Source of the DNA: Eledone cirrhosa
Lineage: Eukaryota
Assembly (NCBI GenBank): GCA_964016885.1
Contig: CAXHJY010000869.1
Span: forward strand, 1-64,000
Length of the DNA stretch: 64,000 nucleotides
Reading direction: 5' to 3'
Shown here: positions 31,477-35,115 of the stretch, in pieces
How the letters are laid out: each line of letters starts with the position of its first letter
Position numbering within the stretch: position 1 is the stretch's first letter
The notes under the pieces: model-generated
Database searches by the model: none
What the model saw: only the letters and a program-made list of their open reading frames with translations
What the model was told of the DNA's origin: nothing
Position numbers and translations under genes: made by a program

Positions 31477-31835
31477 ATTCATATATATATAGCTATTTCA
31501 GAGCACCAATTCTAATTTTCAATTTCTGCTTGACCGGCAACCGCTCTGTATAATCAGTTCCTGATTATTTACTAGAATTCTATAAGAACCAAACATCCAT
31601 GATTTCAGCAAACAGGAGGAGTAGTCGGCTTTGATAAGCATCAATAAATGCGAAACAAGGCCTTGTCAGCTTTATCTCCCCTGTTTGCTGAAAATTAAAG
31701 TAAGTGAGCCTGTCACTACACTAAAACAATAGCATAAGGTCTTCGAAATGCTTTTAATTAAGCATACAGTGTATTGCAAAATACACTATATATACATTCA
31801 TATATATATAGCTATTTAAGAGCACCAATTCTAAT
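31477..31835 (+). mobile_element. Retrozyme-like ~319-bp monomer with terminal direct repeat
   Basis: CATTCATATATATATAGCTATTT(C/A)AGAGCACCAATTCTAAT at 31477 and 31796; contains HHR. Confidence 0.75.
31603..31693 (+). ncRNA. Type I hammerhead ribozyme, U3-A8 core variant
   Basis: TTTCAGCAAACAGG..GGAG..GGCT-TTGATAA-GCAT-caataa-ATGC-GAAAC-AAGGCCTT-GTC-AGCT..CTCC-CCTGTTTGCTGAAA. Confidence 0.85.
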
Positions 31836-31980
31836 ATATATATATATATCATAAAACATGTCTATAGAATCACAAGATAAAATATATACTATTTATATAT
31901 ATATATGTATATATATGTGTATATAATAGAAAAAAACGGGTAAGTTTCGTTTACATATGAAAAATATTTATTGCGTATCG

Positions 31981-32056
31981 ACCTGTTACGCGCGTTTCGC
32001 ACAGGATTGGCTCAAGGTGACACATTGGAGAGTATCGATCTGCTCCTCAGACTGGT
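31981..32056 (-). ncRNA. Hammerhead ribozyme with enlarged domain II
   Basis: Minus strand ACCAGT-CTGAGGA-GCA...TGC-GAAAC-GCGC-GTA-ACAGGT. Confidence 0.65.
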
Positions 32057-32630
32057 GATGCGACAAATGATATAGTTTAGTTGTGGTATGTGGGCCGAGA
32101 AGGTATATATATATAGAAAGAGGCATTGGCTCTATTTTTTTATGTGCTGTGTGTATTTTGGTGCAATTGGTGGCGTATGAATGCAGGTGTGTATTCACCG
32201 ATATTCATGTGCGTGTTTACGTGAGCGCGCTAGCAATTAATGAATCGTGTTTGTATATATTGGAATGATTTTAAGCCCTACGGCTGAGGTCTTGCTGCTT
32301 TGACTACATGTAGGTAACTAGGGCAGAAAATAATTATAATACCTAGACTATTCTTTCTTAGATATCCTGTACTAAGCTGAACAATTGTTTCACTGTTCTT
32401 GACTAGTATCTCCCTATCTGTCTGTCTATCTGTATATTTATCTCTCGGCCTCTCTTTCTCACTTTCTCTCTCTCTCGTCCTCTCTCTCACTCTCCCTTTT
32501 TCTCCCCCTCTCTCCCTTTCTCTCTCTCACTTTCCCTTCTCTCTCACTCTCTCTCTCTCTCTCTCTCTCTTCCCGTTCTCACTTTCTCTCTCTCGCTTTC
32601 ACTGTTTCTCTCTCACCCCCCCCTCTTTCT

Positions 32631-32664
<34 letters not shown>

Positions 32665-32668
<4 letters not shown>

Positions 32669-32852
32669 ATTATTACTGGAACTCTATAAGAATCCAACAC
32701 ACATAATTTTCAGCAAACAGGGGTGGTGAACTTTGATAAGTACCAAAAAGTACGAAACAGTGCTCTGTCAGTTAAAACATGATTTTAAAACAATAGCGTA
32801 TGGTCTTCAAAATGCTTTTAATTAAGCATACAGTGTATTGCAAAATACAAAA
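32665..32852 (+). ncRNA. Partial retrozyme-like copy with U3-A8 hammerhead (core 32729-32773)
   Basis: AACT-TTGATAA-GTAC-caaaaa-GTAC-GAAAC-AG-tgct-CT-GTC-AGTT. Confidence 0.8.
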
Positions 32853-32864
32853 TATTGATGAACA

Positions 32865-33370
32865 TTACAACCCCTAGAGGTGAACTAGCTTACTAATTTA
32901 GAAGGGCCCTAGATAAACTTAAACTAAATATTAAGATACTGGAAAGACCAGGTACCTCCATAAAAACACTTATTAATAATACATACTCTTTTCAAAGACC
33001 TCTCTGTATAGATAGGAAATGCATAATCTGTAAACTAGGCCCCCATATTAACTGTAAAACTAGAAACATAGTATATATCATAGGATGTACTGAGGGGCAA
33101 TGTAAAGATGAGAATATAATGTACATAGGTGAGACAGCTCGTAGCATAGGAGAACGATTAAATGAACACTGGCGAGAACTCCGAGATAGAAAAGACTCAT
33201 AAGTACTCCACCAACATGCTAAAATAGAACATAAGGGCAAACTAGAGAACATAGAAATAAAAATAAAATCTACATACAGAAAAGACAATGTTTAGACAAA
33301 TCACAGAGGCAATAAACATAAATGAACTCCAACCGAAATTAAATAGAAAACATGAATGGAATAGCAACAT
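32865..33370 (+). pseudogene. Penelope-like element GIY-YIG endonuclease relic
   Basis: ERPGTSIK..CIDRKCIICKLGPHINCKTRNIVYIIGC..C..YIGETARSIGERLNEH..RQITEAININELQPKLNRKHEW; two TAA stops and a frameshift. Confidence 0.9.
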
Positions 33371-33583
33371 CACAACTTACAATTAAGGACAAAATGAAAA
33401 CACACACACATAGAACAAACAACCAACCAGTAACATGTAAAGAAACAAATAAATAAACAAATAAAAACACACACAGACACCCGGATGTAACACATGCGCA
33501 AACTAAGCACACAACACACACAAAAACAAGATGGCGTAGGACAGAACAAAGGAGAGGCACAACACAAACAAAAGAATCCCCAG

Positions 33584-33624
33584 TCACTGAAGAGGTCACA
33601 TAATGTGTGACAAAAGAACTTTGA
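33584..33624 (+). ncRNA. Degenerate HHR in the 3' region of the Penelope relic
   Basis: TCA-CTGAAGA-G-GTCACA-taatg-TGTGAC-AAAA(G12 lost)-GAACTT-TGA. Confidence 0.55.
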
Positions 33625-33774
33625 GAATATATGAACAACCGTCCGGTGGTGGAACCAACCAACCAACCGGAAATTTATAAAAAATTTTAAATTTATAATT
33701 TAATTTATAATAAATTGAAGTGAAAGCAACTGGTGCATGTGTTTCTTATTGGCAACATGACCCTCCCAAAGTAT

Positions 33775-33871
<97 letters not shown>

Positions 33872-34015: not shown

Positions 34016-34070
34016 ACTGCCTGAAGAGGTCTCAGCCAAAGATGGCTGACACTGAAATATATATAGCAGT
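34016..34070 (+). ncRNA. Type I hammerhead ribozyme (Penelope-type)
   Basis: ACTGC-CTGAAGA-GGT-c-TCAGCCA-aaga-TGGCTGA-c-ACT-GAAA-TATATA-TA-GCAGT. Confidence 0.85.
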
Positions 34071-34399: not shown

Positions 34400-35115
34400 A
34401 CTTTCTGTGGCATGAAGCGACTGAGAGTACAATCCACACACCCCTGGACAGGATAGCAGTCCATCGCAGGGTTAAACCACCAGCTATTGCTGGCATTAAT
34501 TTTCAGTTGAGTATACTGGAGCAACGGGAAATGAAGCGTTTTGCTCAAGAACACAACATAAAAAACTAGCCCAGGAATAGAACCCGTGACATTATGATCG
34601 TAAGTCCATCACTTAACCATTGGAGTGACATGAAATGAAGTGTTTTGCTCAAGAACACAACATAAAAATTAGCCCAGGAATACAACCTAAGACAGTATCA
34701 TTGTAAGTCCAACACTTTACCACTGGTGTGACATGAAATTACCGTATTTCCCAGCGCCGAAGATGCTTCGTCCTCGAGGACGCACCCTAATTTTGACAAC
34801 CAAAAGTTTGAAAAAAAATAATAAACAACTTTCGGCCTCCAGGACGCATAGAAGATTTTTGATACTTAGTTTAGGAAAAAAAGTAGCGTCTTTGGCGCCG
34901 GGAAATGCGTTTTGTTTTGCTCAAGAAAACAACACAACAACCGGCCCAGGAATCGAACCCACGACATTATGATCGTAAGTCCAACAACCTTACCACTGGA
35001 ACAACATGAAATGAAGTGTTTTGCTTAAGAAAACAATACAACACGCAGCCCAGGAATCGAACCGACGACATTGTGATCGTAAGTCCAGCTCATTTACCGA
35101 GCCACGCGGCCCCAC
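34400..35115 (-). mobile_element. CORE-like SINE with several tandem head fragments
   Basis: Repeated GAAATGAAGTGTTTTGCTCAAGAACACAAC...CCCAGGAATCGAACC. Confidence 0.8.

What the first reader, a model, noticed from the sequence alone, without database searches (positions are those of the whole stretch)
32665..32852. Second U3-A8 hammerhead with all three helices re-sequenced
Seen, relative to 31603: helix I GGCT/AGCT becomes AACT/AGTT, helix II GCAT/ATGC becomes GTAC/GTAC, and helix III changes to ACAG/CTGT. TTGATAA, GAAAC, GTC and the 6-nt CAA-AA loop are retained. This is strong internal evidence that the variant core is functional rather than decay. The copy directly abuts a PLE endonuclease relic.
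Basis: seen in the sequence. Interest (0 to 1): 0.8.

Follow-up and report, generated by a model that had tools for sequence, protein, structure and literature searches.

The report
Variant-core hammerhead retrozyme beside Penelope relic
This is a damaged copy of a common non-coding jumping repeat in an animal genome whose hammerhead motif, predicted to cut its own RNA and likely in pairs, keeps its base pairs across the family despite a rare but already published swap in its core, and the Penelope retrotransposon fragment next to it most likely inserted there afterwards.

Summary
Observation confirmed. Copy B (32729-32773) keeps all 12 hammerhead pairs of copy A, with 4 double-sided changes and the U3-A8 core. 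Reads from other family copies show six paired positions changing at matching frequencies (r 0.98-0.99, unphased) and no core substitution at 5% or more. So the family is under structural selection. B itself is damaged: it lost the 3' arm of the long stem, and one base breaks the family's 12-nt helix III palindrome. The element is a ~319-nt non-LTR retrozyme with three loci in the window, all ending at TA tracts. The palindromic loop III covaries, which points to dimer cleavage. U3-A8 is published in natural hammerheads (PMC3088659, PMC4209133). The Penelope (PLE) relic starts about 3 nt after B, behind a 17-nt inversion. Nested insertion into B's TA end (~0.65) is likelier than a retrozyme-PLE chimera (~0.2). 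Enrichment next to PLEs could not be tested (no genome held). Cleavage is untested. The scan already noted U3-A8 retrozymes of similar unit size elsewhere in this genome.

The parts
32634..32665 (.). (TA)n tract at the 5' end of copy B
32666..32849 (+). Retrozyme copy B, 5'-truncated and internally deleted
   Evidence: 76% over 109 nt and 93% over 70 nt to copy A; alignment
32729..32773 (+). Type I hammerhead of B: helix I 32729-32732/32770-32773, U3-A8 core 32733-32739, helix II 32740-32753, helix III 32757-32768, predicted cut after C17 at 32769
   Evidence: Rfam HH9 sub-threshold match 20.1 bits, E 0.055, gathering 52
32761..32761 (+). Copy-specific base that breaks the 12-nt helix III palindrome; 660 of 693 reads of run X9 carry A here
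   Evidence: palindrome test
32772..32785 (+). Deletion scar: 14 nt stand where copy A has 52 nt, including the 3' arm of the long outer stem
   Evidence: B folds no better than shuffles (z 0.13) against z -7.1 for A
32853..32869 (-). 17-nt inverted piece of the PLE family's upstream sequence, overlapping the forward PLE by 4 nt
   Evidence: reverse complement matches the loose-end consensus of 954 X9 reads before 32866, agreement 0.95
32866..33778 (+). 5'-truncated PLE relic: CX4CxxC linker, C-terminal GIY-YIG endonuclease with stops and a frameshift, 3' pseudo-LTR
   Evidence: Pfam GIY-YIG E 3e-4, 21.5 bits, below cutoff 22.6; P0001 45% identity, E 2.7e-14; tblastn E 4.6e-26. The 3' boundary is read from the (TA)n tract.
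33582..33627 (+). Decayed minimal hammerhead of the PLE's own pseudo-LTR, canonical C3-G8 core at 33587-33593, GAAA box mutated
   Evidence: read by eye; not picked up by the scans because the GAAA box is lost
33779..33840 (.). (TA)n tract at the 3' end of the PLE relic
31488..31834 (+). Retrozyme copy A: one 319-nt unit (35% GC) plus a ~28-nt terminal repeat; intact hammerhead 31627-31671 inside a long stem 31603-31693; TA tracts at both ends
   Evidence: HH9 sub-threshold 20.9 bits, E 0.031
7009..7413 (-). Retrozyme copy C: about 1.3 tandem units with a decayed hammerhead, ending in (TA)n at 6965-7004

Best explanation
Copy B is a damaged genomic copy of one major subfamily of a ~319-nt non-coding repeat (a non-LTR retrozyme) whose U3-A8 hammerhead keeps its base pairs across the family, is predicted to self-cleave, likely as a dimer, and was likely later hit at its TA-rich 3' end by a Penelope-like element. 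Inferred cycle: tandem units are transcribed; two neighbouring hammerheads pair through the 12-nt helix III palindrome and cut after GUC; unit-length RNA is likely circularised and reverse-transcribed into (TA)n tracts by PLE enzymes. A single unit is predicted to fold into an inactive form in which the 5' strand of helix I plus U3-U4-G5 pairs with the 5' half and loop of helix III. The compensatory changes arose in active source elements; B only inherited them. Shown: sequence, pairing, matched allele frequencies, tandem and TA-flanked layout, junction anatomy. Inferred: transcription, cleavage, dimer use, circular RNA, PLE mobilisation, order of the two insertions.
For: Allele frequencies in runs X9/X10, 5' side against 3' partner: C31639T 0.41/0.37 and G31650A 0.40/0.37; A31640T 0.09/0.08 and T31649A 0.09/0.08; T31641C 0.54/0.48 and A31648G 0.53/0.49; T31630C 0.17/0.16 and A31668G 0.16/0.15; A31658G 0.47/0.45 and T31663C 0.56/0.54; loop III G31659A 0.52/0.48 and C31662T 0.53/0.52. 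r = 0.98 and 0.99; 4 and 6 of 720 re-pairings fit as well. Two of these pairs (31640/31649, 31630/31668) are identical in A and B, so they are new evidence. None of the 32 listed substitutions falls on the 13 core positions (1214 and 1019 reads, 307 and 8 contigs). B's helix II and palindromic helix III occur together in a loose-end consensus of 101 and 67 reads. Loop III positions 1 and 4 cannot pair within one hairpin, yet change together. The double-hammerhead dimer scores -28.9, -29.1 and -25.5 kcal/mol for A, A with B-type read variants, and B with the family letter, against -8.6, -12.6 and -9.0 for two active monomers. Unit size, GC and tandem layout fit non-LTR retrozymes (PMC7229834). 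U3-A8 is reported as natural and earlier shown active in vitro (PMC3088659). Nested insertion: B ends at the same TA-rich linker where the independent copy C ends, not at the cleavage site; the junction has a short inversion with a 4-nt overlap, as twin priming from an upstream target end would leave (model described in PMC2246262 for L1; applied here by inference).
Against: No cleavage or RNA data. Reads are unphased, come from two RAD-seq runs of one study, include only molecules at least 80% alike, and may hold duplicates; three of the six pairs sit near 0.5 and probably mark one subfamily split, so independent events number about four. About 10% of reads carry A31658T, which breaks the fourth helix III pair; G31660A (5%/4%) has no listed partner; an insertion behind 31651 (56 of 984, 59 of 843 reads) touches the core; a deletion at 31671 is in 96 of 1106 and 71 of 941 reads. 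B's helix I double change is not listed at 5% and shows only as 25 reads against 152. For native A the dimer (-28.9) barely beats two inactive monomers (-27.8), and the unconstrained dimer (-31.5) is a different fold. The inactive fold carries an A-C mismatch in B's helix I variant, so it is not universal. In Li et al. 2026, 8 of 9 predicted retrozyme dimers did not cleave in vitro. No retrozyme-PLE terminal similarity beyond TA runs was found.
Confidence: 0.72

Rival explanations
1. B and the PLE relic are one insertion: the PLE reverse transcriptase copied the 3' end of PLE RNA, then switched template to retrozyme RNA, making a chimera between two (TA)n tracts.
For: Same strand; about 3 nt between the parts and no TA run; (TA)n on both outer sides; a TAT microhomology between the retrozyme linker and the inverted PLE piece. 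Only one endonuclease relic was found in 64 kb with P0001, and it touches one of three retrozyme loci.
Against: The junction is where free copy C also ends, not at the ribozyme cut site that would be the 3' end of a linear monomer. The inversion fits priming by an upstream DNA end. In the loose ends shown, PLE reads continue into PLE (954 reads) and retrozyme contigs into their own linker (44 contigs), so the fusion is not a family trait (most loose ends were not shown).
Confidence: 0.2
2. The two elements inserted apart and a later deletion with a local micro-inversion brought them together.
For: B already has one deletion with filler; the inverted piece is bounded by a 4-nt inverted repeat, a setting that favours in-place inversion.
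Against: The breakpoint falls exactly at the linker where copy C ends, which a random deletion need not hit.
Confidence: 0.12
3. The ribozyme works as an ordinary monomer; the palindrome and loop III covariation are by-products of selection on another fold or of one subfamily split.
For: Helix III has 4 pairs, longer than the 1-2 pairs of dimer-dependent animal hammerheads (PMC4209133, PMC7229834); invertebrate retrozyme monomers cleave well (PMC7229834). G31627A, G31659A and C31662T also keep the alternative monomer helix paired.
Against: The active monomer is 5-10 kcal/mol worse than the alternative fold for A and the B-type variant set (no tertiary energy counted); both subfamilies keep a perfect 12-nt palindrome through four changes.
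Confidence: 0.3
4. The motif is a dead relic and the pattern is chance or shared descent without selection.
For: B and C are damaged; no activity or RNA data; about four independent events only.
Against: Random substitution rarely keeps all pairs; changes up to 56% in helices against none listed in the core; two hammerhead-like Rfam matches; 0 hits in the reversed window and 1 in 10 shuffled windows against 6 in the real one.
Confidence: 0.05

Closest known systems
Metazoan non-LTR retrozymes (Cervera and de la Pena 2020, PMC7229834, passages read; Li, Clavereau and Pollet 2026, 10.64898/2026.07.22.740005, parts 1-3 of 5 read)
   Same: Type I hammerhead in a ~300-nt, low-GC, non-coding unit found as monomers and tandems; co-occurs with PLEs; palindromic loop III as in axolotl HHR_Amex1.
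   Different: U3-A8 core; 4-bp helix III inside a 12-nt palindrome; long outer stem; no detectable similarity to the PLE-type termini tested in this window; RNA and cleavage not shown here.
U3-A8 minimal hammerheads of Schistosoma mansoni Cercyon PLEs (Cervera and de la Pena 2014, PMC4209133, passages read)
   Same: Same core covariation, about 1,300 genomic hits, palindromic helix III positions, dimer model.
   Different: Those are minimal motifs in PLE terminal repeats; this one is full-size, with a 4-bp helix II and an HH9-like loop II, in a non-coding tandem unit.
Natural U3-A8 hammerheads (Perreault et al. 2011, PMC3088659, passages read; in vitro work of Przybilski and Hammann 2007 seen only as a citation)
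   Same: C3-G8 replaced by U3-A8 with pairing kept.
   Different: Here the swap is fixed across several subfamilies of a high-copy animal repeat.
Neptune/Nematis-type EN+ Penelope-like elements (Craig et al. 2021, PMC8557442, passages read)
   Same: Relic has a CX2-5CxxC linker before a C-terminal GIY-YIG domain, 5' truncation, a hammerhead in the terminal repeat and microsatellite flanks.
   Different: Inverted 5' piece is only 17 nt and internal, not an inverted terminal copy; clade not placed on a tree.

Membership tests
Type I hammerhead ribozyme | Three helices round the core, open end in helix I | tested here: met
   12 of 12 pairs in A and B; sub-threshold HH9 alignments
Type I hammerhead ribozyme | Core with paired positions 3 and 8, GAAA, A15.1-U16.1, H17 | tested here: met
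   U3-A8 pair, no core substitution listed; variant published (PMC3088659, PMC4209133)
Type I hammerhead ribozyme | Reaches an Rfam hammerhead gathering score | tested here: not met
   0 matches in the window; about 20 bits against 52
Type I hammerhead ribozyme | Loop I - loop II tertiary contact | not tested
   Loop II of B equals the HH9 consensus loop; the contact itself was not modelled
Type I hammerhead ribozyme | Site-specific self-cleavage | not testable with these tools
   needs an assay
Non-LTR retrozyme | Unit of 150-450 nt, GC under 45-50%, non-coding, one type I hammerhead per unit | tested here: met
   319 nt, 35% GC; only short stop-to-stop frames over A
Non-LTR retrozyme | Tandem organisation, many copies | tested here: met
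   A has a terminal repeat, C is about 1.3 units; 307 distinct contigs of run X1 lie on the motif. No two complete hammerheads in tandem in this window, so it would not pass the 'active' rule of Li et al.
Non-LTR retrozyme | Expressed as linear and circular RNA | not testable with these tools
   no data obtained
Non-LTR retrozyme | Derived from a PLE pseudo-LTR (Li et al. 2026) | tested here: inconclusive
   A and B against 6 PLE-type terminal stretches of the window: top 8 hits are TA runs only; the genome's other PLE families were not available
EN+ Penelope-like element (the relic) | C-terminal GIY-YIG endonuclease with CX2-5CxxC linker | tested here: met
   motif read from the translation
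EN+ Penelope-like element (the relic) | Telomerase-like reverse transcriptase upstream | tested here: inconclusive
   lost by 5' truncation; tblastn covers only residues 73-248 of P0001

The most novel reading that the evidence does not exclude
The B-PLE unit is a single reverse-transcription product: a Penelope enzyme jumped from its own RNA onto retrozyme RNA. It would be a molecular fossil that ties a named PLE family to retrozyme copying, a link so far proposed from co-occurrence and terminal-repeat similarity. In the same reading U3-A8 is kept because U3 helps lock single units in an off fold that only dimer pairing releases.
Probability: 0.2. Interest if true: 0.6.

Novelty: new variant of a known kind. 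Interest (0 to 1): 0.32.

Why it matters
It adds natural, family-wide support that U3-A8 is a working hammerhead core in a high-copy animal retroelement, and gives covariation in loop III that favours the dimer model with a concrete off/on prediction that a simple transcription assay can test. If the junction proved chimeric it would bear directly on which enzyme moves animal retrozymes. As it stands, the class, the core variant and the dimer idea are all in print, so the gain is modest.

Tried and rejected
No whole genome is held for this window, so copy number, a phased alignment and PLE enrichment could not be computed. Rfam at gathering threshold: 0 matches. A pattern scan of metagenome contigs gave 2 matches; by eye neither forms the helices, so both were rejected as chance. 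Dating B against the PLE failed because only 40 of 248 substitution rows were shown. Rejected: that the retrozyme is the regular 5' part of this PLE family (loose ends; the PLE has its own C3-G8 motif). Paper searches: hammerhead with C3U and G8A, 1 paper, not relevant; hammerhead with U3-A8 or C3-G8 spellings, 2 papers; retrozyme with U3-A8 spellings or UUGA, 0 papers; Penelope, template switching, chimeric, retrozyme, 12 of 14 listed, none on retrozyme-PLE chimeras by title or abstract start; twin priming with Penelope, 3 papers, none on PLEs by title; hammerhead in cephalopods, none of the 20 listed holds the term. The host taxon was not determined.

Full report
Observation. The two motifs lie 1102 nt apart on the + strand (A 31627-31671, B 32729-32773). 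Both copies form 12 of 12 pairs; 4 pairs change on both sides, 1 on one side and 7 not at all. Nine random substitutions in the 24 paired positions keep every pair in 0.04-3.7% of trials, depending on the transition share. Rfam finds nothing at gathering level but aligns both motifs to Hammerhead_HH9 at about 20 bits (E 0.031 and 0.055; gathering 52). A relaxed motif scan found 6 hammerhead-like motifs in the window, 0 in its reverse and 1 in 10 shuffles.

The element. A sits in a 319-nt unit of 35% GC with a ~28-nt terminal repeat, inside a long stem (z -7.1). A third, decayed copy C of about 1.3 tandem units lies on the - strand at 7009-7413. All three loci touch TA tracts. This is the layout of animal non-LTR retrozymes (PMC7229834, passages; Li et al. 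2026, parts 1-3 of 5).

Larger covariation test. No genome is held, so I laid public runs on A: 1214 and 1019 raw reads of two RAD-seq runs (organism A, one study), 307 contigs of X1 (organism A) and 8 contigs of X4 (organism B). All 32 substitution rows were shown; none is on the 13 core positions. I used 12 rows as six pairs. 5' and 3' partners change at matching rates: 0.41/0.40, 0.09/0.09 and 0.54/0.53 in helix II, 0.17/0.16 in helix I, 0.47/0.56 in helix III and 0.52/0.53 in loop III (run X9; X10 is alike). r is 0.98 and 0.99; 4 and 6 of 720 re-pairings fit as well. Two of the six pairs do not differ between A and B, so they are new support. Left out of the pairs: G31627A (0.54, G-U to A-U), A31658T (0.11/0.09, breaks a pair), G31660A (0.05/0.04, no partner listed) and 17 rows in flanks, loop II or rare. 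An insertion behind 31651 (about 6%) and a deletion at 31671 (about 8%) also occur. Limits: unphased reads, possible duplicates, an 80% likeness floor, and probably only about four independent events. Three X4 contigs carry the same helix II changes, so the subfamily is shared with a second organism label.

What B is. B's helix II is a major subfamily (about 40% of reads), seen together with a palindromic helix III in a loose-end consensus of 101 and 67 reads. B departs from it: 660 of 693 X9 reads have A at 32761, where B's T breaks the palindrome, and 14 nt replace 52 nt that hold the 3' arm of the long stem, so B folds no better than shuffles (z 0.13). B's helix I double change is a minority form: 25 reads (9 starts) match through 32773 against 152 (35 starts) that stop at 32771, and it is not listed at 5%. 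The compensations therefore record selection on source elements; B is probably inactive or impaired (inference).

Mechanism. A and the B-type subfamily both keep a perfect 12-nt palindrome over helix III and its loop, through four changes. Loop positions 1 and 4 cannot pair within one hairpin, so their matched change favours a double hammerhead, the known mode of newt, axolotl and PLE hammerheads (PMC4209133; PMC7229834). Nearest-neighbour energies put the active monomer at -4.3 to -6.3 kcal/mol, below an alternative helix of helix I 5' strand plus U3-U4-G5 with the 5' half and loop of helix III (-13.9 for A, -11.6 for the B-type set); the dimer scores -28.9 and -29.1. U3 pairs in that alternative helix in both sets (U-A, U-G). 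This predicts monomer off, dimer on. Against it: the margin for A is 1 kcal/mol, unconstrained dimers fold otherwise or as well, tertiary energy is not counted, the variant set is unphased, B's helix I variant puts a mismatch in the off helix, and the same three changes fit the alternative helix alone.

The PLE. [quoted passage not shown] Family reads continue upstream of 32866 in a consensus whose last bases are the reverse complement of 32853-32869 (954 X9 reads, agreement 0.95). So a 17-nt inverted PLE piece, overlapping the forward part by 4 nt, starts about 3 nt after B's last matching base (32849). B ends at the TA-rich linker where free copy C also ends, and shares TAT with the inverted piece. 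This is what twin priming from an upstream target end would leave (model for L1 as summarised in PMC2246262, one passage; detail from my own knowledge). I put nested insertion at about 0.65, a template-switch chimera at 0.2 and later deletion at 0.12. No sequence similarity beyond TA runs links the retrozyme to six PLE-type termini of the window. Enrichment was not testable.

Known work. U3-A8 was reported in natural hammerheads, with earlier in vitro activity cited (PMC3088659, passages), and in about 1,300 Schistosoma PLE motifs (PMC4209133). An unpaired C3/A8 core was inactive in a schistosome candidate (PMC8490949, passage). I found no paper naming U3-A8 in a retrozyme, but supplements of PMC7229834 were not opened and those of the bioRxiv preprint are closed; either may hold such a case. 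Li et al. saw cleavage in 1 of 9 predicted dimers, a caution for any untested copy. Earlier notes of this scan describe U3-A8 retrozymes of 316-320 nt and PLE-type ends elsewhere in this genome; they are unchecked leads, and I did not confirm that they are the same family by sequence (one search did not return them).

Verdict. Real, selected at family level, ordinary in kind: a new variant of a known system. Interest 0.32.

Noticed in passing
window 31860-32400 (- strand): Likely 3' terminal region of another PLE family with a C3-G8 hammerhead-like motif near 31975-32050, tail-to-tail with copy A across TA runs.
   Followed up: partly
window 34016-34070 (+), 45030-45090 (+), 44394 (-), 50146 (-), 61555 (-): Further C3-G8 hammerhead-like motifs, most with short palindromic helix III, typical of PLE terminal repeats.
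   Followed up: partly
window 6540-6640: Back-to-back inverted copies of the sequence that follows the 34021 motif, about 350 nt from retrozyme copy C.
   Followed up: no
window 44020-44140 and 44555-44680: Two related, long near-perfect hairpins, each directly after a (TA)n tract, flanking an inverted pair of hammerhead-bearing termini at 44240-44510; possibly a small palindromic mobile element.
   Followed up: no
window 7700-8200 (- strand): Tandem array of a ~120-nt piece of a SINE-like repeat that also occurs singly near 34400-34560.
   Followed up: no
run X5 (organism C): Holds the PLE family deeply but shows no depth over the hammerhead (32717-32791), whereas organism B holds both; contigs show presence, not absence.
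   Followed up: no
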